IMG/VR virus record: IMGVR_UViG_3300050034_000334
DNA: 64,000 nt
Origin: a virus
Taxonomy: Duplodnaviria > Caudoviricetes
Direction: 5' to 3' (one strand)
Under the pieces are notes generated by a model. That model ran no database searches. It saw nothing but the letters and a program-made list of their open reading frames with translations, and was not told the DNA's origin. Positions within the stretch are counted from its first letter, which is position 1. The number at the start of each line of letters is the position of its first letter. Position numbers and translations under genes: made by a program. Positions 6,925 to 31,936 of this stretch are shown in pieces.

Positions 6925-6994
6925 CGAAACTCCCGAACACACGATGTTCTACAATGTATTTAGAAGTTGGAGCGGTGTGCGGTATTATGTAGAT

Positions 6995-7831
6995 ATGAGC
7001 GTAGATACCCTGAATTCCTTCATAGAAGAGCGGGAAGAGATTCGTGTGAGGAAGGAATCGGGCCAGCCATGGCCCTGGACTTCCAACGTGATTTTCTTGA
7101 CCTACAAGTTCTGTAACGTCTGTCGCGAGGATGATCGAACCACGCGGTGGATTGCCAAGAACTGGAGAGAACCACATGCTGACGACCCCGATCTTTGGTT
7201 TGCCCTGGTCATAGCTCGCCGCGTTCTCAACTGGCCCTGGAGCATGCAAGCTCTTGGATACCCGGTGCCCTGGGATTCAGCTTACTTCACCTCAGTCACC
7301 ACATCCCTGATGACCTCTGGCCAGAAATGCTACGACACAGCCTATCAGCTTCTCGTTCAAGGACAGAAGGGTGACAAGGCTGAGAACATGATCAAGCACA
7401 TCCTCAATCCTCTCTGGGAACATCGTGAACACATCCGACCCAGGCAGTACGATGAGTTGCGAACCTTCTTCAATCGACTCTCAGCCTTCAAGTACATGGG
7501 TCTGTTTTACACCGGCCAGGTCGTGGCTGATCTGAAGTATGCTCAACTGACGAATGCTCTAGACTGGGATTCGTTTGCTGTGCCAGGTCCTGGAAGCGAA
7601 CGCGGCCTCAATCGAGTTCTCGGCAAGCCCAAGGAGTGTGCTTGGACTGTCAAGGGTTGGACCGAAGCACTAGAAAATCTGAGACCTCAGATCAGAATGA
7701 AGATCCATGCTCAAGATCTCCAGAACTGCCTCTGTGAGTTCGACAAGTATGAGCGCATCAGACTGGGAGAAGGTCGGGTGCGTCCATATCACCCTGCTCC
7801 TCCTATGGTGACTGACGGGAGTTCGTCATGA
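6995..7831 (+). CDS. 5-hmdU DNA kinase helical domain / aGPT-pyrophosphorylase clade 1 family (thymidine hypermodification)
   Basis: FIEEREEIRVRKESGQPWPWTSNVIFLTYKFCNVCREDDRTTRWI, G.FY.GQVVADL and VPGPGS.RGL are characteristic family motifs. Start at ATG 6995, 6 nt after TATTAT. Confidence 0.8.
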   Translation: MSVDTLNSFIEEREEIRVRKESGQPWPWTSNVIFLTYKFCNVCREDDRTTRWIAKNWREPHADDPDLWFALVIARRVLNWPWSMQALGYPVPWDSAYFTSVTTSLMTSGQKCYDTAYQLLVQGQKGDKAENMIKHILNPLWEHREHIRPRQYDELRTFFNRLSAFKYMGLFYTGQVVADLKYAQLTNALDWDSFAVPGPGSERGLNRVLGKPKECAWTVKGWTEALENLRPQIRMKIHAQDLQNCLCEFDKYERIRLGEGRVRPYHPAPPMVTDGSSS

Positions 7832-22754: not shown

Positions 22755-25700
22755 TCACTCCCTTATGAATGAGTCCGGAACCCGAATCGCATTGACGTCT
22801 GTGAAGGTGACGACCTGTCCTTGGTACATCGCCTTGACCTTGTTGGTTCCGATTCCCAGAGACTCGCGCAAAGCCTTGGCGTCAGCCGCCGTCAGGTTCC
22901 GAAGTTCGGGAATATCAGCCTTCGCCGGCAACTTGAGGTTTGGTTTGGGTTCAGGCTTCGCCTCAGGAGGCTTTACAACAACCTTCCGTACAGGGATATC
23001 CAGTAGAAGCTCGTTCTCGTCGATCTGAGTGCCTTCTGCCTCAGCGATTTGTTTGTGTAGTTTACCGATCTCGCTGCGGAGATTGTCCTCGTCATCGAGT
23101 TTGGTGTCGAGTTTCTTGTTCAATTCCTCAACGATGCTGACAACTTGCTTGCGTTCCACGATTTCCCTGGCCTGTTCTGCGATCTGCTCTCTATCTTCAA
23201 GAGTAATCGGCTTGGGAATGTCCGTGGTGAACTGAATCTCCAACTGCTCATCCTCTCCTAGAATCGGAAGCTCGGGACGCTTGACATTGATGTCAAGAGG
23301 AATTGCACCGATATATCCGAACACCGGCATCAGGCCGCGATCAGCAGGAGTGAGACCACACCGGGCTTCGAACTGCTCGAGGGTCTCCAACTTGTCATCC
23401 TGATCCTCAGGGATTTCATCAGTCTTCCAGAATTCATGAAGCTGGAGTCCGATGATGAGATACTTGCGCATCTCCTTGCCATCCTTGGCCGCGAAGATGT
23501 GCTTGGAGGCTTCCTCGAAAGCACGAGTGTGCAAGTTCTCCTTGAGCCAACCCTTGACCTTCTCGCGACGTTTCTCATCACCAGACTTGAGAGCAGTGAG
23601 CAGTGCCCTGACCGTGTCAATGTCGAACTCTTCCGGAACATAGTTCTCCATGCCAGGGATCTCCGACCAGCCGGCAGGCTTGTGGCCGTCATCGCCGGTC
23701 AAGTGGTGTTCAACATCCCAGCTGCGACCGTACTCAGTGTCACACTCCAAAGGGACGCGCCAGTTCATCGAGGCATGATACTTCCTCAACTTCATGAGGC
23801 GAGTCAGCCTCGGCAGAATGAATGGAGCGTACTCGTTCTTGAATGAGAAGTCGATCTCATCGTGGACCGAACCATGCATCAACAACACTGCTTGTACCAT
23901 AGGATCCTTTTCTGCTGCCCACTTGCGGATTCGATTGAGCGTGATGCGCATGAAGTCGCCAGCGAGACCCTGCATCGGGACATTGACAGCAACTCTCTGA
24001 ATCTTCCCCATGAATTGGTTGTAGTCACCAACATTTCGAACGCCAGTTTCTGGCGTCTTCCACATTATGTCGGCGCGGTCGCGAAGTTCCCGGAAAGTCT
24101 CCTTGTCCTTGGACTTCTCAGCCAGGGTGGCCGCCTTATCCAACCGACGATATTCCCAATAATTGTCCATCTCGTGCTTGGTCGGATTGTGAATGCCCAG
24201 GGCTGACATCGCTGAATCAAACTTGATGATTCGTCCAGTCGCTGTCTGACACGTCATCTTCTCCTTGGCAATGGCTTGCTTGCGGTCGCAGTACTCGCGG
24301 AAGACCGGCACTCCAGCCCAGTAGGCATCCACCATCTCCTGTGCATGCTCAAAGGTGATGTTGGGATCCTTCTTCTTCATGTTCTCGAAGATCGTGTAAG
24401 CCGTTCCGCCGTACAGCAGGGCGAAGTTGAGGATCTTGGCGAGAGCACGATAGCTCTTCTTGGTCGCCTTGTCGATGTTCGGGTCGTTGAACTCAGGGAA
24501 GACCTTGCTGGCGGTCAGACTATGGAAGTCTCCTGATCCCTCCAAGAATTCCTTGATGAATTCCGGCTCGCCTGAGATGTTCGCTGCCACACGCATTTCG
24601 ACGTTGCTGTAATCGATAGTGGCGAACGTCCAACCCGTAGGAGCCTTGAACATGGCGCGGAGGTTGATGACCTCATTGGCATCCATGCGCCCATTCTCGA
24701 TGAGAATGCCATAGTTCTTTGCGCAGGTCTTACAACCGGGCACCAGGCAGATCGCATATCCCAGGTACTGCCCGATGTGATTCTTGATGATGTTCGGAGC
24801 CTTGACCTTGTACTCTTCCTTCTTACTGTCAAAGATCTCCTTGACAATAGCTCGCCCATCCTTGTCGACCATGGGCTTGGTATCCCAATCGAGGACCGGC
24901 TCCTCCCCAATCTTGGTCTTGATTGTCCTCTCTTCCGTCTTCCAGCACGACGGGTGAAGGTCTTCCGGAGCGTGCTCCTCGACGCTCTCGGGGTCTACGT
25001 TGTCTGGCTCGAGGACATTACCCTTGACCCACCAGTTGCCTTCCACGCGCTTGATACCCTGAATGTTGAGACCGAAGCCGCCGTCGACTTCGTACTTGCC
25101 ACCTGTCGCTGACAGACGGCCACCGGCCACGACGCAGGATCTCAGATAGATTCGAGCGGTGTGATCCTTGGGGTCGAAGTGAAGGTTCTCAGGGTGGAGG
25201 GCGACATATGCCTTGTACTTGCCATAGGTCTTGAGGAAGATGTTATCAGGGTAGATCTTCGCTAGATCCGAGATGGTCTCAGCATCACACGAAGGATCCT
25301 GGGTCTTCTTGGAGCGCCGCAACACACGGAGCTTCATGGTCTGGAACAACAGCTTGGCCATCTGTTTGTTGCTGTCCGGGTTGAACTGCTCTCCATCCTC
25401 TTCCTTGTACCCGGCTTCGATAGCAATTCCACGCAGCCGTGCCCGGTCAACTTCCAGCTTGGCTTGGTGCCACTTCACTGTACGCTTATGGCGGTCCGTG
25501 TCCACGATGTACCGCTGCCGCTCAATCCACGTGAGCGAGTCTACCAGTTCGTGGTCAATGCGATGTACCAGCTTCAGCTTCCGGGCCTCATCCTTCAGCT
25601 GCCACCAAAGTAGCCAGGTGCAGATTGCGTCACTGGCAGCGTACCAGTATGCGATGTCAGTCGGAATCCAAGTGAACGGGACATACTGAATGCGAGTCGT

Positions 25701-26663
25701 GGTCTTTCCGGTCTCTGGATTGAAGAAATCTGCACTGACCTTGCCGATCTGGTCCAGTTCAATCTGGTCGATGCCCAGCTTGATGAGCGAGAGATTCTTC
25801 AAGCCGCCTGTGTCGCCGGTGTACTGTCCCTTCTTCTGGTCACCAAGGTCTGCTTTGGGGTCGTTCAGATAGTTGAAGACCTGAACGTCCTCGAAGAATG
25901 GATAGGGGCGCATGTCTATGCCCAGGGTCTGACGGATGACCTCACGATCGAATTTCGCGTGGTAGAACACCAGGTGACAGTTATTGAACAGATGCTGGAG
26001 GATCCTGTGGCAATCTTCACGGGAGACGTTGTGGCCATCTGCGTGATTGATGGGAACGTAGATTCCCTCAATGCCATCGGCTGAAAGGCAGATGCCGGCG
26101 ATCTCCATCTTCACTTCATAGATGGGAACCCAAACCTCGTTGCCACTGGTGTCTCTGGCCTGCACCAGATCGATCATGACACGAGTGTCCAGCGTGATGG
26201 TCTCAGTGTCGCAGGCGACTACCGGGAGAACCTGACCAGAGGGCGTGGGATGATGGAGAGAAGTGTCATGCAGAATCTTCTCCACCCATCCCTCAAGTTC
26301 CTGGGCTGAGTCGACCCGGCGAAGCACCTTGGAGGCCATCCACGGTCTCTTCAACTTCTCAATGTCGAGGGTCTTCAGCAGAGCGCGGAACACAGTCCGT
26401 AGATCCTTGGGCTTCTTCTTGGCCGCTGGCTTCTTGGATGCTGCCGGAACAGTTACCTTGACATCGTCGTCACTGATATTCTCTTTCTTGACCCGCGTCT
26501 TGCGTGGCTTCTTGAGCTCAGTTACAGCACTGACCAGCTTGTCCACAGCTTCGACGATCTCTTCTTTGAGAGCAACCTTCTGCTCCCGTTCTTCCCAGTC
26601 TTCTTCCTCTTCGTCATCCGTCCATTCAGGATGAGCTACCTCATCAATGTCATCTTCACTCAT
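22755..26663 (-). CDS. polA: Family A DNA polymerase with 3'-5' exonuclease
   Basis: Exo motifs CDTET, YHAKFD and YAASDA; polymerase motifs A (IDYSNVEMR), B (RALAKILNFALLYG) and C (VHDEI). Confidence 0.95.
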   Translation of the reverse strand: MSEDDIDEVAHPEWTDDEEEEDWEEREQKVALKEEIVEAVDKLVSAVTELKKPRKTRVKKENISDDDVKVTVPAASKKPAAKKKPKDLRTVFRALLKTLDIEKLKRPWMASKVLRRVDSAQELEGWVEKILHDTSLHHPTPSGQVLPVVACDTETITLDTRVMIDLVQARDTSGNEVWVPIYEVKMEIAGICLSADGIEGIYVPINHADGHNVSREDCHRILQHLFNNCHLVFYHAKFDREVIRQTLGIDMRPYPFFEDVQVFNYLNDPKADLGDQKKGQYTGDTGGLKNLSLIKLGIDQIELDQIGKVSADFFNPETGKTTTRIQYVPFTWIPTDIAYWYAASDAICTWLLWWQLKDEARKLKLVHRIDHELVDSLTWIERQRYIVDTDRHKRTVKWHQAKLEVDRARLRGIAIEAGYKEEDGEQFNPDSNKQMAKLLFQTMKLRVLRRSKKTQDPSCDAETISDLAKIYPDNIFLKTYGKYKAYVALHPENLHFDPKDHTARIYLRSCVVAGGRLSATGGKYEVDGGFGLNIQGIKRVEGNWWVKGNVLEPDNVDPESVEEHAPEDLHPSCWKTEERTIKTKIGEEPVLDWDTKPMVDKDGRAIVKEIFDSKKEEYKVKAPNIIKNHIGQYLGYAICLVPGCKTCAKNYGILIENGRMDANEVINLRAMFKAPTGWTFATIDYSNVEMRVAANISGEPEFIKEFLEGSGDFHSLTASKVFPEFNDPNIDKATKKSYRALAKILNFALLYGGTAYTIFENMKKKDPNITFEHAQEMVDAYWAGVPVFREYCDRKQAIAKEKMTCQTATGRIIKFDSAMSALGIHNPTKHEMDNYWEYRRLDKAATLAEKSKDKETFRELRDRADIMWKTPETGVRNVGDYNQFMGKIQRVAVNVPMQGLAGDFMRITLNRIRKWAAEKDPMVQAVLLMHGSVHDEIDFSFKNEYAPFILPRLTRLMKLRKYHASMNWRVPLECDTEYGRSWDVEHHLTGDDGHKPAGWSEIPGMENYVPEEFDIDTVRALLTALKSGDEKRREKVKGWLKENLHTRAFEEASKHIFAAKDGKEMRKYLIIGLQLHEFWKTDEIPEDQDDKLETLEQFEARCGLTPADRGLMPVFGYIGAIPLDINVKRPELPILGEDEQLEIQFTTDIPKPITLEDREQIAEQAREIVERKQVVSIVEELNKKLDTKLDDEDNLRSEIGKLHKQIAEAEGTQIDENELLLDIPVRKVVVKPPEAKPEPKPNLKLPAKADIPELRNLTAADAKALRESLGIGTNKVKAMYQGQVVTFTDVNAIRVPDSFIRE

Positions 26664-27315
26664 AGACGAACTCCTTGGCCTTATGCCGTCTTACTCGAGC
26701 AACGATATCTGAGCCTAACACTTCCGCCAAGGCTTTCACTCGTTTTGTCTCGTCATGCTCTTGCTGGGCTTCGAAGTAAATACGCAGGTACTCTTCAGCT
26801 AACTCGTAACTCTTGTTCGCCATAACATCCTTGCGTGCGAAGACTATGTACAAGCTCGATAAATCCTCGAACTTGAGAGGTACGATGATGTCCTCGTCTT
26901 CAGGAGGTAAGTTAGACTGTAGAGGAGGCAGGTTATAGGATCTCTCCAGCCATTCCATCGCTTTGGGCCGGGAGATGCCACGTATCTTTGCCACAAAAGT
27001 GACAAGGGTGTAGGCAGCTGAACAGCCAAAGCAGTAACCCATGTTGCCGCGTGCTGGAGGATAGATGTAGAACGATGGTGTAGAGTCCGTTCCGTGGAAG
27101 GGGCAACTAATGGCATGCCCATGCTTTCCAGTTAGGTCTTCTACAACATCCGAGAATAGAATCTCTGTCTGTACCCGCTCGTTTCGACGTTCCCACAGTT
27201 CGGGGTCACTTACACGAACCGACCTGTCGTACAATTTCTTCAGGTTTTCTTTGCTGAATTCGAACTCTTCGAAAACTTCGGAATCAGACAGGTTGGGAGT
27301 GCTGTCTTCTGGCAT
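26656..27315 (-). CDS. Stand-alone CHC2 zinc-finger (primase ZBD-like) protein
   Basis: ISCPFHGTDSTPSFYIY..GYCFGC; no Toprim domain follows. Confidence 0.8.
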   Translation of the reverse strand: MPEDSTPNLSDSEVFEEFEFSKENLKKLYDRSVRVSDPELWERRNERVQTEILFSDVVEDLTGKHGHAISCPFHGTDSTPSFYIYPPARGNMGYCFGCSAAYTLVTFVAKIRGISRPKAMEWLERSYNLPPLQSNLPPEDEDIIVPLKFEDLSSLYIVFARKDVMANKSYELAEEYLRIYFEAQQEHDETKRVKALAEVLGSDIVARVRRHKAKEFVYE

Positions 27316-27558: not shown

Positions 27559-27979
27559 ATCAGTTCAGATCCAGCGAACCAGAAACTGATCTCGACTTGT
27601 GCGGATGAACTGCTGTCTGACCCATGGATGGCGTTCTCACGCACGACAGCACCGCCGAATTGAATTGACGACGTAGAGTACCCTCTGCAGCCTTTGCCGG
27701 ATCTGTAGCTCCCATCAGTTTCCGCAAATCGGCAATCGCATCTTCTTTCTCAAGCACCATGAGGAATAGCGGTCCCGATGCCATGAACTCTGACAGTGGC
27801 TCGAAGAAGGGTTTGCCAGCGTGCTCTCGATAGAAGTAGTCAGCCTGAGATCGAGATATTGTAGTTTTCTTGATGGTGATGATGGAGAATCCAGCCTTTT
27901 CGATTGCGGCTAGGATTGCACCAGTGAAACCTCTTCGCACAGCATCAGGTTTGATAATGCTGAAAGTTCTCTCTATCAT
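27555..27979 (-). pseudogene. ndk: Nucleoside diphosphate kinase, frameshifted by a 5-bp duplication
   Basis: [22 protein letters not shown]. Removing one copy of the 5-bp repeat at 27657-27666 restores [29 protein letters not shown] with the catalytic His and a stop at 27555. Confidence 0.9.
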
Positions 27980-27989
27980 TTGTGCTCTC

Positions 27990-28169
27990 CTAGGCTGGAG
28001 TCATCTCATTTGCCAACTCAGTCATAGTCTCGACTGAATCAGCCGTACCTGACCACACCAGTCTCATCCATTTGTCGTTCTCACAAGATTCTTGATACTC
28101 AGCATCTGTGAGAACGACATAGAATGGATTGTACGAGCACGGTATATGAACGATGTGGAACCGTTTCAT
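27990..28169 (-). CDS. Small hypothetical protein
   Basis: ATGA-coupled start MKRFHIV. Confidence 0.55.
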
Positions 28170-29614
28170 ACAACAGACTCCAGGCAAATGGTCAAATCGT
28201 CAACTGTCTCGATAGTCACATTCGTAGTGACTTCCCTCTTCTTGTAGGGCTTCCGCTGCTTGGGAACAGTCGATCCCTTGAGGAAACAGTCCTTGAGCAC
28301 CCGCATACGATTACGAGCACGATTGAACTCCTGCTCTGTCATGCTCATGTCTTCCATAGCCTCCCGATAGTTGCCGGCTTGGGCAATGGCTGCCATGACT
28401 TCCAACAGTTCAGGATCGGTCTTGTTCACGAAACAACGATACTCCTCCAAGAAGATCTTCACATCCTCGGAGACTGGCTTGAAGGGCTGAACGCAGTGGT
28501 GGTGGACATACTCATCGTCGACAACTTCGGAGTACTCCTCTGCCGGCATGCCCAGGACCAAGTTGCCCATTGTACAAATGGGATTCTTGGACTGCTTGCT
28601 GTAGATGGTGCTGTACCGATTGCTCAAGCAGTTCTTGACATAGTTGAAGAAACGACGAGCAGAAGCTCCATACTGGAGGATCGGGTCAAAGATCTGTATG
28701 ACATCCTCACAGCCTTCGGGATGCCAGCGGTGACTACCGGGCTGCCTGTACTTGCTGCTCGGAGGAAGGTAACGAAGGTGCATGAGCAGGTCAGCTTCCC
28801 AGTCTTCAACATCCATGTCGACCGAGATCCTGTGAATCCGTTTCATGACCCAACGACGGGTGTATTCAGGGTATTTCATGTAGAACTCGCCAAAATCGCG
28901 AGGAACCACGAAACCGTCATCACCAACGAAGTGTCCATCCTCATCAGTAGTGAAGGAATCCCCAGAATAGGGCTTGGTTTCCTCTTCAACAGCGGCCTCA
29001 ACCTCGAGATCCTCATCCTCTTCATCAGGAGGAGCAAGTGGAGTGACCACAATCACAGTTGCCGCTGGTTCCAGTTTGTGGAGCAAACGTGTGAGCCACT
29101 CTCCCTCTTGAATAGAAGAGCAGGGGCCTCCTCTGGGTGGCCAGCTTTTCTCGCCTTCCAGCAGGAGAAGATCCTTGGTGAGTTCAGTAGAAGAGACAGG
29201 AATCCACTCGACATCGTAGAAATGAGAGTAGTTGTCATTCCCGTTGCCGGTACTGTCATGCTTGTCTTTTTGGTACTTGTAGCCAGAGGTGATACGACCC
29301 AGGCCGTGTAGACCATACTGCACGTTGGGCACCACCACAATCATCCCAGGTTTCAGTGAGAGAAAGTTGGTGAAGTTGCGCTTGGCCTTGTTCTGATTCT
29401 TTAGAGCAGAGATGACCACCTGCTCGTTTTTGTCGTTGAGTACAGTTTCCTCTTGAATGTTCTGTTCGATGAGAGCGTGAACTTCGGCTAGTGACTTGCC
29501 CGTCAAATCGAATTCTGGCAGCCATCCTATGGCGGCATAACCACCATCAAGGAAACGCTTGAAGGCAACCTTCTGGTTGCTCCCGGAAGGGGCGATTGTT
29601 GCATAATGTGACAT
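28166..29614 (-). CDS. Fusion of an McrB/Mrr-type N-terminal DNA-recognition-like domain, an acidic linker and an ECF-sigma-like domain
   Basis: N-terminal F..GGYAAIGW..DL..F..LKPGMIVVVP..LG.ITSGY.Y..HFY.VEW. C-terminal FGEFYMKY..DVEDWEADLL..FDP..FFNYVKNCLSN (sigma region 2-like) and YREAMEDMSMTEQEFNRARNRM (region 4-like). Confidence 0.55.
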   Translation of the reverse strand: MSHYATIAPSGSNQKVAFKRFLDGGYAAIGWLPEFDLTGKSLAEVHALIEQNIQEETVLNDKNEQVVISALKNQNKAKRNFTNFLSLKPGMIVVVPNVQYGLHGLGRITSGYKYQKDKHDSTGNGNDNYSHFYDVEWIPVSSTELTKDLLLLEGEKSWPPRGGPCSSIQEGEWLTRLLHKLEPAATVIVVTPLAPPDEEDEDLEVEAAVEEETKPYSGDSFTTDEDGHFVGDDGFVVPRDFGEFYMKYPEYTRRWVMKRIHRISVDMDVEDWEADLLMHLRYLPPSSKYRQPGSHRWHPEGCEDVIQIFDPILQYGASARRFFNYVKNCLSNRYSTIYSKQSKNPICTMGNLVLGMPAEEYSEVVDDEYVHHHCVQPFKPVSEDVKIFLEEYRCFVNKTDPELLEVMAAIAQAGNYREAMEDMSMTEQEFNRARNRMRVLKDCFLKGSTVPKQRKPYKKREVTTNVTIETVDDLTICLESVV

Positions 29615-30004
29615 GGCGTGTATCCGTTTCGTGAATTGTGGAGATAACGGACACGTGTAGCGAGGGGACTGAGAGTCAGTCAGCACACTGAGAATGATTC
29701 AGCCGAGAGGCACACATGTAGTGATTGGTTTGTTTTGGACCTGTTATCAGTCAGGTTGCGCCAGAGCATACAGTTAGTACTCGGAAATCAGAAAACTGGG
29801 CAATACACGATTTGCCAAAGTTTACTGAAGAGATACCGGAGGAGAGTGCTCAAGAGGGAACATTAGGACTCTCTCATGGCCTGATGAATAGTGATTCATT
29901 TTGACCTACTTCTGTTTGATGAGAAACTATCATAGTTCTTATATGCGGGTTACGCCGCAAATTTGAATGTTTATTTTCTATTTATAAGAACCATATCACC
30001 ATGG

Positions 30005-31936
30005 TTATCCTCTGCGGTGATAAGGATTGACGACTGGTTTTACACCGTTCGTTCCGGACATATGGGAGATTTTCCTCATGCGTTCGAGCACCTGGAGATC
30101 ACGCGAAGATACTGCCTCAATGTGTAGGATTGGCTTGGGTGGAATAGAGGCTTGTTTCTGCATAATCAGGCTCTGCCCAGTTGGGTCCAACCTCAGTCGT
30201 CCATCTGTATCCAAGTACTGCTGAGCTAACAAGGCAACGAGGGCTGCGGAGTCGCACATATCGTCGTGGGCACCCTTCTCTTCCGGGGCCTCAACTCGAA
30301 TCTGGTACTTGTTGATCATCTCAGCTTCAACGTTCTTCAGTTCATTGAAGAACTTGGGCACGTTGGGAAGCTGACATAGTCCCTGATCAATATAACCCTT
30401 CAGGGTGAAGTACATTTGAGAGTTGATCTGGGAGTTGAGGTGGACACCCTCCATGGTGGTGATTCCCAAAATGTGAAGCAACTGTACGAGAAGGCGACCA
30501 CCATGCTGGTCAGTCTGGCCACGGAAGCAGGGTAGTACATTATGCATGTAGACGAGCCAGGAGGCAATCTCCTCAAGGACAAGCTCTTTGTGATTGACAT
30601 ACCGATTCATACCATCCCCAGTGGGAACACCGGGGCCTTCAAACTTCTCACCAACCATCATGCGATCGATGTAGTCGTACACCAGCATGATGCCCTTGGG
30701 AGTGACTTCGAGGTGTCCAATCGCCAGAGCCGTGGCGTCATTCTTCATACCCAGATCAAGTCCCCAGAAGTAGTTGTATCCCAGACATTCCGGAGAGAAC
30801 TGGATGATGTTGTCTCTTTCGACCTTGCACTTCTCAATTGAGATTCCAGAGACATACGTTTCAGACGATTCTAGGAACTGACCTCCATACTCTGCTTTCC
30901 ATGTCAGAGGAGCGGTCTTCAGCTTGTTGTACAGGAACTCACTATCTGCGCGGGGGTTCATTTCAGCCGTTCCCACACGCATGGTGAAGATGCCTGATCC
31001 TACACCGCCTTCCATGGCGATGGTGTGAATGTCGTACATCTTGCCCATCTTCTTCCAAGGTGAAGAGATGGATAGAATCAGGGCCTCGCGCTTGCCATCA
31101 TGCGTGAACTGCATGGTCGCGGGGTTGGCAGCTTCGTACACTTCTTCGGAGCTTGATCCCTTGTCACTGCGGAAGTGAGCGAACTCATCCAGAACCAAGA
31201 CAAGTGACGATGGACCACGCACCGCTGTGGAGGTACAAGCCAGAGACATCACGTTGACGGTTGGGGTGATCTGAGTCTTGTGCCGGTCAGCCTCGGTCAC
31301 GAACCCCAAGGAGGTTGTGCTGCCTCCCTTGAGATATGGCTTGAAGAACGGAGTCTTGTTTACCTGTTCGCGGAGTTTCGCAAAGATGCGGCCTGCACCA
31401 TCTTCATCCTGAGCGAGGAACGTGAAGTCGATGGGTGAACCCTCGTCCAGATCGTAGTATTCCTGTGGGGAACGAACATGGAGCAGCTTGTAGAGTTCGA
31501 AAGCTCCAATGGCTGATACCAATTGGCTCTTTCCACCTCTGCGACCAGCAAAGACAGTAGACTCACGGAAACCATTGGGTGGGAGATCTCGCCAATCTCT
31601 TACATTGCAGCGTCCCTCATCATACACCCACTTGAGATAGTCCTCTTCAGCCGTTGGTCCGGTGAACTCATGAAGCAACTTGTCACGGAACTTGTCATAG
31701 ATGGGAACTGATTTCCAGACTTTATTGGATTCGCAGATGGGCTTGTAATCGAAAGGGATGGCATAGATGCAGCGAACGATGACTCTCTGGACTGGATACA
31801 GAGACATGTTCAGACCAGAGGAAGACTCAATGAAATCCAGGGCATTCAGTATGTCACCCTGATTCAGTTGCTGGTCGACCAGCTGTCCTAGGACTGAGTC
31901 CTGCGCTGCTTTACTGAAGCGATTTGTAACTGCCAT
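30005..31936 (-). CDS. terL: Terminase large subunit
   Basis: Walker A AGRRGGKS, Walker B LVLDEFAHF, coupling ISSP, nuclease GLDLG..D and HDD..D. Confidence 0.93.
   Translation of the reverse strand: MAVTNRFSKAAQDSVLGQLVDQQLNQGDILNALDFIESSSGLNMSLYPVQRVIVRCIYAIPFDYKPICESNKVWKSVPIYDKFRDKLLHEFTGPTAEEDYLKWVYDEGRCNVRDWRDLPPNGFRESTVFAGRRGGKSQLVSAIGAFELYKLLHVRSPQEYYDLDEGSPIDFTFLAQDEDGAGRIFAKLREQVNKTPFFKPYLKGGSTTSLGFVTEADRHKTQITPTVNVMSLACTSTAVRGPSSLVLVLDEFAHFRSDKGSSSEEVYEAANPATMQFTHDGKREALILSISSPWKKMGKMYDIHTIAMEGGVGSGIFTMRVGTAEMNPRADSEFLYNKLKTAPLTWKAEYGGQFLESSETYVSGISIEKCKVERDNIIQFSPECLGYNYFWGLDLGMKNDATALAIGHLEVTPKGIMLVYDYIDRMMVGEKFEGPGVPTGDGMNRYVNHKELVLEEIASWLVYMHNVLPCFRGQTDQHGGRLLVQLLHILGITTMEGVHLNSQINSQMYFTLKGYIDQGLCQLPNVPKFFNELKNVEAEMINKYQIRVEAPEEKGAHDDMCDSAALVALLAQQYLDTDGRLRLDPTGQSLIMQKQASIPPKPILHIEAVSSRDLQVLERMRKISHMSGTNGVKPVVNPYHRRG

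What the first reader, a model, noticed from the sequence alone, without database searches (positions are those of the whole stretch)
28166..29614. Sigma-like factor fused to a type IV restriction-style DNA-reader domain
Seen: the N-terminal region (about 29587-29069) has the GY.AIGW / [LM]K.G..V / G.I.SGY.Y / H...V.W pattern I associate with N-terminal recognition domains of McrB-like and Mrr-like modification-dependent enzymes. The C-terminal region (about 28903-28235) has ECF sigma region 2- and region 4-like motifs. Inference: with a thymidine-hypermodification gene in the same genome, this could be a sigma factor that reads modified DNA and directs RNA polymerase to phage DNA or away from host DNA. 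I do not know of such an architecture.
Basis: inference. Interest (0 to 1): 0.72.

Follow-up and report, generated by a model that had tools for sequence, protein, structure and literature searches.

The report
Phage sigma factor with modified-base reader
A giant soil phage that chemically alters its own DNA encodes a sigma factor (the protein that directs the host RNA polymerase to promoters) fused to a domain that bacteria normally use in restriction enzymes to detect modified DNA. The phage may therefore use a borrowed defence sensor to aim transcription at its own genome, but this has not been tested.

Summary
Window 28166-29614 (- strand) is one intact 482-aa gene with two unrelated halves.

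- **N-terminal half (residues 1-185):** this is DUF8426 (PF28530). Its model (pLDDT 93.7) is a PUA-like EVE/YTH fold (PH1033 Z 11.7; the EVE-HNH restriction enzyme VcaM4I Z 9.8). In cellular proteins the same domain sits next to McrB-type GTPase, HNH, PD-(D/E)xK, TIR, MrcB_N or Mrr_N modules, which are the parts of type IV restriction enzymes.
- **C-terminal half (residues 216-462):** this is a divergent sigma-70-family factor with sigma2 and sigma4 domains. The fold hits are almost all sigma factors. Family members weakly match phrog_1740 and TIGR02937. A control-tested complex model places its region-2 helix on the RNA polymerase beta' clamp helices.
- **Context:** the sigma module is a core gene of a jumbo-phage clade (TerL, sigma, primase, DNA polymerase) in which I found no phage RNA polymerase. 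Its N-terminus varies: DUF8426 in 8 homologues plus the query, an unknown domain in about 66, NUMOD3-like repeats in some, nothing in about 20.
- **DNA modification:** the genome carries thymidine-hypermodification genes. So do relatives that lack DUF8426, so the link is permissive, not specific.

The architecture is solid and I found no published description of it. Reading of modified DNA is inferred only.

The parts
28166..29614 (-). Whole gene: 482-aa DUF8426-sigma fusion protein (P0001), with stop codon
   Evidence: Continuous ORF. Eight full-length homologues at 40-66% identity come from independent samples. It is a single copy in the 143-kb record held.
29060..29614 (-). Residues 1-185: DUF8426 (PF28530), a PUA-like EVE/YTH-type domain and the presumed modified-base reader
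   Evidence: Precomputed PF28530. AF2 model pLDDT 93.7. VIA: PH1033 Z 11.7, VcaM4I Z 9.8, YTHDC1 Z 9.2, McrB N-domain Z 7.0. Foldseek PDB hits are all YTH/EVE. AFDB clusters E 1e-8 to 5e-5 to McrB/Mrr/EVE/NucS-named proteins. Family-conserved residues W31, S110, Y112, H131, W137 and W158 are kept in 8 of 8 sigma fusions.
28970..29059 (-). Residues 186-215: Pro-rich and acidic linker (11 of 30 residues are D or E)
   Evidence: Sequence. Variable in length and sequence among homologues. The other architecture also has a Pro/Glu-rich linker here.
28829..28969 (-). Residues 216-262: family-specific conserved head of the sigma module (YxGDxF...DGHFVGDDGFVVP beta-hairpin, then helices matching sigma region 1.2/2.1)
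   Evidence: Nearly invariant columns in 94 sequences. AF2 strands at module residues 10-12 and 18-20, pLDDT 85-98. TIGR02937 profile positions 2-39 align to module residues 24-69 in family members.
28586..28828 (-). Residues 263-343: sigma2-like domain with a conserved loop of about 35 residues inserted between the region 2.2 and region 2.3 helices
   Evidence: VIA: SigI6 sigma2 Z 6.5 (89 aligned, rmsd 2.9), SigR N fragment Z 4.8, SigC sigma2 Z 4.8. In the complex model, residues 266-282 contact beta' 250-324, the clamp helices.
28478..28585 (-). Residues 344-379: sigma2-sigma4 linker
   Evidence: Lower pLDDT of 62-76. In the complex model it contacts beta' 39-44 and 250-266.
28268..28477 (-). 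Residues 380-449: sigma4-like helix-turn-helix domain
   Evidence: VIA: SigH 3mzy Z 7.9 (70 aligned, rmsd 3.4), SigD4 7.3, CnrH 7.3, SigK 7.1, BldN 6.6, sigmaE region 4 6.1. Weak HTH_29/HTH_1 Pfam hits in 13 and 8 family members.
28229..28267 (-). Residues 450-462: conserved basic tail VPKQRKPYKKR, predicted disordered
   Evidence: P240, Q242, R243, Y246 and R249 of the module are nearly invariant in 94 sequences. pLDDT below 50. Function unknown.
29651..29721 (-). Two copies of CTAYAYGTGT, 61 nt apart, in the 5' leader of the gene; possibly an operator or promoter element
   Evidence: These are the only two exact matches in the 64-kb window. One copy is conserved about 27 nt before the start codon of the homologue in L036. 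Not followed further.
6944..7831 (+). Context: PF18723 (HMUDK_hel) protein, a marker of the thymidine-hypermodification pathway
   Evidence: Family search of the window's own genome, E 1.3e-41, above the curated cut-off. A 72% identical homologue lies on the same 346-kb contig as the DUF8426-sigma homologue P0004.

Best explanation
**What it is.** The gene encodes a phage sigma factor for the host RNA polymerase. It is a divergent two-domain (sigma2-sigma4, ECF-like) member of the sigma-70 family. In one sub-clade of a jumbo-phage lineage it acquired an N-terminal PUA-like (EVE/YTH-type) DUF8426 domain of the kind that type IV restriction enzymes use as their sensor. An acidic, Pro-rich linker joins the two halves.

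**Proposed mechanism.** The sigma module binds core polymerase through its region 2.1/2.2 helix on the beta' clamp helices and reads promoters with sigma2 and sigma4. The tethered reader domain captures a flipped-out or single-stranded modified base, most plausibly the phage's own hypermodified thymidine. This would raise the occupancy or activity of the holoenzyme on phage DNA relative to unmodified host DNA.

**Shown here.**
- The two folds and the domain order.
- The restriction-type company that DUF8426 keeps in cellular proteins.
- Conservation of the fusion across homologues down to about 40% identity.
- Hypermodification genes in the genome.
- No detectable phage RNA polymerase in the relatives.

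**Inferred.** Binding to core polymerase rests on an in silico model only. Binding to a modified base, which base it is, and any effect on transcription are all inferred. My confidence in the architecture is about 0.9. The figure in the confidence field is for the whole mechanism.
For: **N domain.**
- PF28530 is precomputed for the identical cluster and all 8 full-length homologues.
- The AF2 model has pLDDT 93.7.
- Only 138 of 48,161 PDB chains reach Z >= 2, and the top ones are all PUA-like modified-base readers: PH1033 Z 11.7, VcaM4I EVE-HNH Z 9.8 with 135 aligned, YTHDC1 Z 9.2, T. gammatolerans McrB N-domain bound to m5C DNA Z 7.0, THYN1 Z 6.8.
- Foldseek PDB hits are all YTH/EVE.
- AFDB cluster hits at E 1e-8 to 5e-5 are proteins named McrB, Mrr, EVE, restriction endonuclease or DUF262.

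**Partner domains of DUF8426.** I scanned 30 multi-domain proteins found with the DUF8426 profile.
- 17 carry AAA_5, the McrB-type GTPase domain.
- 5 carry MrcB_N and 1 carries Mrr_N.
- 2 carry HNH, 1 TIR, 1 HSDR_N (PD-(D/E)xK) and 1 a second EVE.
- None carries a transcription domain.

**Retention of the family core.** The residues conserved across the family are kept in 8 of 8 sigma fusions.

**C module.**
- AF2 model pLDDT 85.9.
- Sigma4 hits at Z 6-7.9 and sigma2 hits at Z 4.8-6.5, in the correct order, plus colinear whole-sigma rows such as SigB Z 7.6 with 145 aligned.
- 28 of the top 30 AFDB Swiss-Prot hits are sigma factors, with probability up to 0.96.
- BFVD hits are phage sigma factors.
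- 39 of 94 family members hit phrog_1740 'RNA polymerase sigma factor' (best E 9.2e-6). 47 of 94 hit TIGR02937 sigma70-ECF (best E 1.6e-4, below the curated cut-off).
- A homologue is annotated as a sigma factor in Tunturiibacter phage Tunturi_5, with the same order TerL, sigma, primase, DNA polymerase.

**Complex model with Solibacter RpoC residues 1-400.**
- The score was 0.82 against 0.30 for the best of 3 controls.
- That mark was reached by 58 of 80 solved complexes and 2 of 110 mismatched pairs.
- The three runs share at least 72% of contacts, and the partner's pLDDT is at least 74.
- The interface is beta' 250-324 with residues 266-282 of the protein.
- Sigma-core complexes are solved, so this pass may reflect the model's memory. 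It shows likeness, not binding.

**Dependence on the host polymerase.** No beta or beta' Pfam hits were found in the window's own 143 kb or in 10 large relatives, 5 of them complete.

**Maintenance of the fusion.** All 8 fusions analysed fall in one supported clade (97/85), spanning about 50% identity in the C module and about 30% in the N domain.

**Modification genes.** PF18723 lies in the window. GATase-ADDT plus GNAT lies in the same genome. PF18723 is also on the 346-kb contig of homologue P0004.
Against: - No binding of any kind was measured.
- DUF8426 is an uncharacterised family, so the base it recognises, and whether it acts on DNA or RNA, is unknown.
- The hypermodification marker is not specific to the fusion. 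PF18723 is in 4 of 5 complete relatives whose sigma lacks DUF8426. None of 33 relatives' records has DUF8426 anywhere. The clade therefore transcribes presumably modified DNA without it.
- ADDT is found in only 1 of 33 relatives, and that one has a different N domain.
- Asp91, invariant in the non-sigma DUF8426 domains aligned, is Met or Thr in the query's sub-clade. Trp18 is Phe in all sigma fusions. The pocket may therefore have changed.
- The query itself reaches no curated sigma profile threshold.
- The fold Z scores for the helical sigma domains are in the range where helical folds can match by chance (note).
Confidence: 0.42

Rival explanations
1. The N domain binds modified RNA or a free modified nucleotide rather than DNA, and acts as a regulatory input to the sigma factor. 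For example, it could sense modified tRNA or the pool of hypermodification precursors, and release or activate sigma at the right time of infection.
For: The nearest solved folds include YTH domains that read m6A in RNA. The EVE survey argues that many bacterial EVE proteins act on modified tRNA (PMC7641849). This phage lineage carries very large tRNA sets with their own control elements (earlier findings listed; Tunturi_5 has 43 tRNAs). A nucleoside diphosphate kinase gene sits directly downstream in this genome.
Against: The closest sequence relatives of the domain sit in McrB, HNH, PD-(D/E)xK, Mrr and TIR proteins, which are DNA-targeting defence architectures. A sigma factor already works on DNA, so a DNA ligand is the simpler reading.
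Confidence: 0.18
2. The N domain no longer reads bases. It serves as a structural, autoinhibitory (sigma region 1.1-like) or protein-docking module, and the acidic linker acts as a DNA mimic.
For: The N-terminal position is occupied by unrelated domains in other members, or by nothing in about 20 members, so it is dispensable for the core function. The linker is acidic, with 11 D or E in 30 residues. D91 and W18 of the family consensus are replaced in the sigma fusions.
Against: The aromatic and polar residues conserved family-wide (W31, S110, Y112, H131, W137, W158) are kept in 8 of 8 fusions across about 30% overall identity. That is the pattern expected for a retained ligand site rather than a mere scaffold.
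Confidence: 0.15
3. The domain is an anti-restriction shield. It competes with host type IV restriction enzymes that use the same DUF8426 sensor, by occupying the modified bases on phage DNA. Fusion to sigma merely concentrates it there.
For: The domain family is otherwise found in restriction-type proteins, so a phage copy would recognise the same mark those enzymes attack. The phage modifies its DNA.
Against: A stoichiometric shield would need many copies per genome, which is unlike a sigma factor. No stand-alone DUF8426 gene exists in this genome or in 33 relatives. The fusion is invariant in all 8 homologues plus the query.
Confidence: 0.08
4. The C-terminal module is not a sigma factor but another helix-turn-helix regulator or replication-module protein. 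The whole protein would then be a modification-sensing DNA-binding factor unrelated to RNA polymerase.
For: No curated sigma profile is reached by the query. A profile of 94 members finds no sigma in PDB by sequence. hhalign against E. coli RpoE is insignificant. The gene lies between the terminase and replication genes.
Against: Two separate domains both match sigma domains, in the right order. Hit lists from PDB, Swiss-Prot models and viral models are dominated by sigma factors. 39 of 94 members hit a phage sigma PHROG. The control-tested complex model reproduces the canonical interface between region 2.2 and the beta' clamp helices.
Confidence: 0.07

Closest known systems
Tunturiibacter phage Tunturi_5 gp3 (XOB77446.1, annotated 'RNA polymerase sigma factor'; PP885688; PMC11924767) and its metagenomic family
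   Same: The C-terminal sigma module is homologous (38.7% identity over residues 219-470, E 4e-44). The gene order is the same: TerL, sigma, primase, DNA polymerase A. It comes from a jumbo phage with no detectable RNA polymerase of its own.
   Different: gp3 has only a short N-terminal extension and no DUF8426. The Tunturi_5 genome has no PF18723, ADDT or DUF8426 match.
Modification-dependent (type IV) restriction enzymes with PUA-like sensors: EVE-HNH VcaM4I (PDB 6yex; PMC7897488) and McrB homologues with YTH-like N domains (PDB 6p0g)
   Same: The sensor has the same fold (Z 9.8 and 7.0). DUF8426 itself is fused to McrB-type AAA_5, HNH, PD-(D/E)xK, TIR, MrcB_N and Mrr_N modules in cellular proteins.
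   Different: Here the effector is a sigma factor, not a nuclease or GTPase. The output would be transcription rather than cleavage. Sequence similarity to the EVE and YTH Pfam models is negligible.
ECF-type (group 4) sigma factors with fused extra domains, such as ECF41 with its C-terminal regulatory domain (PMC3426412, title seen)
   Same: A two-domain sigma2-sigma4 core with an appended domain that modulates activity.
   Different: The extension here is N-terminal and has a nucleic-acid modification-reader fold. The core carries a family-specific beta-hairpin head, a loop of about 35 residues inside sigma2, and a conserved basic tail. I did not read that paper, so this comparison rests on general knowledge.
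Phage T4 Alc, which restricts transcription to 5hmC-containing templates (as summarised in PMC7824862), and SPO1 TF1/gp28 with hydroxymethyluracil DNA (my own knowledge, not checked here)
   Same: The concept is the same: a phage couples transcription to the chemical mark on its own DNA.
   Different: Alc acts on elongation on unmodified DNA and has no reader-sigma architecture. Here a dedicated reader domain is covalently joined to the initiation factor.

Membership tests
Sigma-70 family, two-domain (ECF-like) sigma factors | Sigma2 domain fold (helices of regions 2.1-2.4) | tested here: met
   VIA: SigI6 Z 6.5 (89 aligned, rmsd 2.9 A) over module residues 20-139, SigR N fragment Z 4.8, SigC sigma2 Z 4.8. 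These Z values are moderate for helical folds. Support comes from the consistency of the hit lists.
Sigma-70 family, two-domain (ECF-like) sigma factors | Sigma4 helix-turn-helix domain C-terminal to sigma2 | tested here: met
   Module residues 169-238 match SigH Z 7.9, SigD4 7.3, CnrH 7.3, SigK 7.1, BldN 6.6 and sigmaE region 4 6.1. Colinear two-domain rows include SigB Z 7.6 and SigL Z 6.7.
Sigma-70 family, two-domain (ECF-like) sigma factors | Match to curated sequence profiles (Pfam Sigma70_r2/r4, TIGR02937) above threshold | tested here: inconclusive
   The query has no hit. 47 of 94 family members hit TIGR02937 at best E 1.6e-4; the sampled hits score 12.6-14.4 bits against a cut-off of 42.9. 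39 of 94 hit phrog_1740 sigma factor, best E 9.2e-6. Homology is transitive and weak.
Sigma-70 family, two-domain (ECF-like) sigma factors | Binding of core RNA polymerase through region 2.2 on the beta' clamp helices | tested here: inconclusive
   Complex model with Solibacter RpoC 1-400: score 0.82 against best control 0.30. The mark was reached by 58 of 80 solved complexes and 2 of 110 mismatched pairs. Runs share at least 72% of contacts; partner pLDDT at least 74. Interface: beta' 250-324 with residues 266-282. This is a prediction that may come from memory of solved sigma-core complexes, not a measurement.
Sigma-70 family, two-domain (ECF-like) sigma factors | Promoter-specific initiation (-35/-10 recognition) | not testable with these tools
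   A k-mer search of 50 upstream regions in the 143-kb record gave no shared motif. This needs in vitro transcription or mapping of transcription start sites.
DUF8426 (PF28530), PUA-like superfamily (EVE/YTH/ASCH-type) | Sequence membership in PF28530 | tested here: met
   Precomputed PF28530 on the identical cluster P0002 and on P0003-P0009. Atlas feature score 0.94 to DUF8426 clusters. The profile search finds 378 relatives. The local Pfam copy lacks this model.
DUF8426 (PF28530), PUA-like superfamily (EVE/YTH/ASCH-type) | PUA-like beta-barrel fold shared with EVE and YTH readers | tested here: met
   pLDDT 93.7. PH1033 Z 11.7 (125 of 143 aligned), VcaM4I Z 9.8, YTHDC1 Z 9.2, ASCH Z 7.4. AFDB clusters probability 1.00, E down to 1.3e-8.
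DUF8426 (PF28530), PUA-like superfamily (EVE/YTH/ASCH-type) | Intact ligand pocket (aromatic cage) and binding of a modified base | tested here: inconclusive
   The family-conserved residues W31, S110, Y112, H131, W137 and W158 are kept in 8 of 8 sigma fusions, but D91 and W18 are replaced. I had no model coordinates, so I could not map these residues onto the pocket. An insignificant alignment (E 0.56) to the MRB1 YTH domain aligns the chain's RYRH...V.W stretch with the family's Y.H...V.W motif. Ligand binding needs an experiment.
Type IV (modification-dependent) restriction enzymes | Modification-sensor domain | tested here: met
   See the DUF8426 rows. The same domain is fused to McrB-type AAA_5, HNH, PD-(D/E)xK and Mrr_N modules elsewhere.
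Type IV (modification-dependent) restriction enzymes | Nuclease or McrB-type GTPase effector domain | tested here: not met
   No nuclease or AAA_5 match anywhere in the 482 residues. Residues 216-462 are the sigma module. It is therefore not a restriction enzyme; only its sensor is shared.

The most novel reading that the evidence does not exclude
In this jumbo-phage clade the N-terminus of the phage sigma factor may be an exchangeable slot for DNA-mark or DNA-shape readers. Its occupants are DUF8426 in one sub-clade, an unidentified beta-rich domain in most others, and NUMOD3-like repeats in a third. Each would be matched to the DNA chemistry of its phage, so that transcription initiation checks an epigenetic mark of self. 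The DUF8426 version would be a sensor taken from host type IV restriction systems and turned from destroying modified phage DNA to transcribing it.
Probability: 0.2. Interest if true: 0.88.

Novelty: new variant of a known kind. Interest (0 to 1): 0.72.

Why it matters
Sigma factors are thought to find promoters by base sequence and DNA shape. No sigma factor is known, to my knowledge, that carries a dedicated reader of chemically modified bases. I found none in the EVE-domain survey, two jumbo-phage reviews or full-text searches.

If the fusion works as proposed, it would be a direct link between DNA hypermodification and transcription initiation. It would show a new way for a virus to tell its own genome from the host's. 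It would also be a clear case of a phage re-using the sensor of an anti-phage weapon.

The idea is directly testable with one recombinant protein and modified oligonucleotides. It could also give a programmable, modification-dependent transcription switch, and a first ligand assignment for the uncharacterised DUF8426 family found in many restriction systems.

Tried and rejected
- **Direct searches with the whole protein.** Pfam, PHROGs and PDB sequences gave only noise. The local Pfam copy lacks PF28530.
- **Sigma-module profile by sequence.** The profile against PDB sequences gave no sigma hit; the best was an insignificant Gag match. hhalign against E. coli RpoE gave probability 0.24%. Its only alignment paired module residues 29-68 with RpoE 21-56, the expected region, but this is not evidence.
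- **The commoner N-terminal domain (alignment A2).** It shows no relation to DUF8426 by hhalign. It has no Pfam, PDB or Atlas identity.
- **Shared promoter motif.** I compared 6-8-mers in 50 upstream regions of the 143-kb record and found nothing convincing. The sigma-70 consensus scan near the gene found no more than in shuffled sequence.
- **Whole-contig searches of the two long contigs with DUF8426-sigma homologues.** These records are not held. I used matching contig length and sample to place PF18723 on the 346-kb contig instead. The 99-kb contig could not be assessed.
- **PF18744 and PF18745.** I recalled these wrongly as aGPT-Pplase families; they are SNAD1 and SNAD2, so the searches say nothing. 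PF18746 matched only the window's own genome.
- **Scan of bacterial genomes for DUF8426.** It gave one Verrucomicrobiae locus whose match spans two called ORFs, which was uninformative. The larger alignment was too diverse to scan with.
- **Swiss-Prot references.** RPOC_ACIC5 and RPOC_KORVE were not held; RPOC_SOLUE was used instead.
- **Assembly or frameshift artefact.** I rejected the idea that two genes were joined by error. Eight homologues from JGI, ENA and Logan samples have the same continuous architecture.
Full report
**The gene.** Window 28166-29614 (- strand) is one uninterrupted ORF of 482 codons. It lies between the large terminase (30005-31936) and, downstream, a 65-aa ORF, a nucleoside diphosphate kinase (27560-27979), a DnaG-type primase (26656-27315) and a family A DNA polymerase (22755-26663). 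An in-frame GTG at 29686 could extend it. The window is part of a 143.6-kb virus record judged 46% complete. An identical copy of a neighbouring protein occurs on a 342-kb contig, so this is a jumbo phage.

**Three or four architectures around one conserved module.** A search of 5.8 billion proteins found 96 relatives.
- Eight of them, plus the query, share the whole length (40-66% identity) and carry Pfam PF28530, which the Atlas names DUF8426.
- All the others share only residues about 216-464.
- About 66 have a different, mutually homologous N-terminal domain of roughly 130 residues followed by a Pro/Glu-rich linker. That domain is unrelated to DUF8426 by profile comparison.
- About 20 are the C-terminal module alone.
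- IMG/VR loci add a further form whose N-terminal extension has NUMOD3-like repeats, at 19.3 bits against a cut-off of 20.4.

The N-terminus of this protein family is therefore a variable slot. The DUF8426 form is the rare one.

**The N-terminal half.**
- With a 67-sequence alignment the domain folds confidently (pLDDT 93.7).
- Foldseek against PDB returns only YTH and EVE domains, including the EVE-HNH restriction enzyme VcaM4I and THYN1 bound to 5mC DNA.
- The Foldseek-independent aligner gives PH1033 Z 11.7, VcaM4I Z 9.8 (135 residues), YTHDC1 Z 9.2, ASCH Z 7.4, and the YTH-like N domain of T. gammatolerans McrB on m5C DNA Z 7.0. Only 138 of 48,161 chains reach Z 2.
- Against AlphaFold fold clusters the matches (E 1e-8 to 5e-5) are proteins named McrB, Mrr, restriction endonuclease, EVE or DUF262.
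- A profile search of 1.8 billion representatives found 378 relatives. Of 30 multi-domain ones I scanned, 17 carry the McrB-type AAA_5 GTPase, 5 MrcB_N, 1 Mrr_N, 2 HNH, 1 TIR, 1 a PD-(D/E)xK HSDR_N module and 1 a second EVE. None carries a transcription domain.
- Sequence similarity to the EVE, YTH and PUA Pfam models is negligible, so DUF8426 is a separate family of the PUA-like superfamily.
- The residues conserved across the family (W31, S110, Y112, H131, W137, W158 and four glycines) are kept in all eight sigma fusions analysed. W18 is Phe in all of them, and the otherwise invariant D91 is Met or Thr in the query's sub-clade.

**The C-terminal half.**
- No curated profile is reached by the query.
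- The evidence for a sigma factor is nonetheless convergent. The model (pLDDT 85.9) has two helical domains.
- Residues 169-238 of the module match sigma region 4 of many sigma factors (SigH Z 7.9, SigD 7.3, CnrH 7.3, SigK 7.1, BldN 6.6, sigmaE 6.1).
- Residues about 20-139 match sigma2 domains (SigI6 Z 6.5, SigR 4.8, SigC 4.8). Whole sigma factors align colinearly over both (SigB Z 7.6, 145 residues).
- Foldseek lists from PDB, Swiss-Prot models (28 of the top 30) and viral models are dominated by sigma factors, at weak E-values because the two domains are flexibly linked.
- At sequence level, 39 of 94 family members hit phrog_1740 'RNA polymerase sigma factor' (best E 9.2e-6). 47 of 94 hit TIGR02937 below its cut-off, over the region 1.2/2.1 part of the profile.
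- The homologue in the cultured Tunturiibacter phage Tunturi_5 is annotated as a sigma factor and has the same neighbours.
- A complex model with the first 400 residues of an acidobacterial beta' subunit scored 0.82 against 0.30 for the best of three controls. That mark was reached by 58 of 80 solved complexes and 2 of 110 mismatched pairs. The runs share at least 72% of contacts and the partner's pLDDT is at least 74.
- In that model the interface joins the beta' clamp helices (250-324) to residues 266-282, the DVEDWEADLLMHL helix that I read as region 2.1/2.2.
- Sigma-core complexes are well represented among solved structures. The pass therefore shows likeness and does not prove binding.

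The module also has features of its own: a conserved beta-hairpin head (YxGDxF...DGHFVGDDGFVVP), a conserved loop of about 35 residues inside sigma2, and a nearly invariant basic tail VPKQRKPYKKR.

**Which polymerase.** No beta or beta' family match was found in the window's own record or in ten large relatives, five of them complete. Very divergent phage polymerases could escape these models. A 2026 review states that jumbo phages lacking their own polymerase usually use phage sigma factors with the host enzyme (PMC13282480). The module is single-copy in the record held.

**Modification genes and the co-occurrence test.**
- The window holds a PF18723 (HMUDK_hel) protein at 6944-7831 (E 1.3e-41).
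- About 48 kb from the sigma gene there is a glutamine amidotransferase-ADDT (PF18724) fusion followed by a GNAT.
- The one other DUF8426-sigma genome with enough sequence, a 346-kb contig, also has PF18723.
- PF18723 is also in 7 of 33 relatives' records and in 4 of 5 complete ones. These have the other N domain or none.
- ADDT is in only one of the 33, and DUF8426 is in none of them (with the window's own genome as positive control).

Hypermodified thymidine is thus probably common in the clade and compatible with the proposed role. The fusion is not required for it. The data are too few to link DUF8426 to one particular modification.

**Evolution.** In a maximum-likelihood tree of the sigma module, the eight fusions fall in one supported clade (97/85). 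Six long-branch short forms are nested inside it. A single gain with a later loss is not excluded. This argues for selection on both halves and against an assembly artefact.

**Most likely mechanism.** A phage sigma factor recruits host core polymerase. Its tethered reader domain, on an acidic linker of about 30 residues, captures a modified base on phage DNA, either flipped out of the duplex as in VcaM4I or on the single-stranded non-template strand. This would favour initiation on phage DNA.
- Inferred: the ligand, the site of action, and the effect on transcription.

The rivals are RNA or nucleotide sensing, a degenerate structural or autoinhibitory domain, an anti-restriction shield, and a non-sigma regulator. 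They are listed with their tests.

**Novelty.** The EVE-domain survey (PMC7641849), the comparative analysis of jumbo phages (PMC7824862), a 2026 jumbo-phage review and full-text searches for DUF8426 or for hypermodification with sigma factors turned up no such fusion. The nearest concept is T4 Alc, which limits transcription to 5hmC DNA, but it works differently. I class this as a new variant of a known kind: a sigma factor with a new type of appended domain.

**Limits.** I had no model coordinates for pocket mapping.

Noticed in passing
window 29651-29660 and 29712-29721 (- strand): Two copies of CTAYAYGTGT, containing the palindrome ACACGTGT, lie 61 nt apart in the leader of the sigma gene. 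They are the only exact matches in the window. One copy is conserved about 27 nt upstream of the start codon in a 63%-identical homologue (L036). This may be an operator or promoter element for autoregulation.
   Followed up: partly
window 27560-28187 (- strand): A nucleoside diphosphate kinase (PF00334, E 6.6e-40) and a 65-aa ORF sit between the sigma and primase genes here. In the homologous loci L036 and L037, no NDK-sized gene lies between sigma and primase. The NDK is therefore a lineage-specific insertion in a conserved core block.
   Followed up: partly
P0010-P0075 N-termini (alignment A2); e.g. L006:3419-4000: Most members of this phage sigma family carry a different N-terminal domain of about 130 residues (motifs GPRRPxPS, LRPWK, W-DGKKSLQG-PWGRP) with no Pfam, PDB or Atlas identity, followed by a Pro/Glu-rich linker. 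Where enough genome was available, these phages also carry PF18723.
   Followed up: partly
L016-L022, e.g. L017:3338-4036: Another form of the sigma family has an N-terminal extension of about 200 residues with two SxxARxKISESQxxxWA repeats that resemble the NUMOD3 DNA-binding motif of homing endonucleases (19.3 bits, just under the Pfam cut-off).
   Followed up: partly
window 28229-28267 (residues 450-462) and the same position in all 94 family members: A nearly invariant, predicted disordered basic tail VPKQRKPYKKR follows sigma4. A conserved beta-hairpin (YxGDxF...DGHFVGDDGFVVP, window 28829-28969) precedes sigma2. Neither is a usual sigma feature, and I cannot assign either a function.
   Followed up: no
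G000:C1:98000-114000 (locus L034), 5.6-21.6 kb beyond the window end: Around the GATase-ADDT and GNAT genes lie a UvrD-type helicase, a GIY-YIG/NUMOD3 homing endonuclease, a NUDIX hydrolase and a 519-aa protein with a PARP catalytic domain (PF00644, E 6.4e-23).
   Followed up: no
G025 (IMGVR_UViG_3300036766_000194, 299,875 bp): This complete relative carries three PF18723 genes plus an ADDT gene. It appears to be a much expanded thymidine-modification set within the same phage clade.
   Followed up: no
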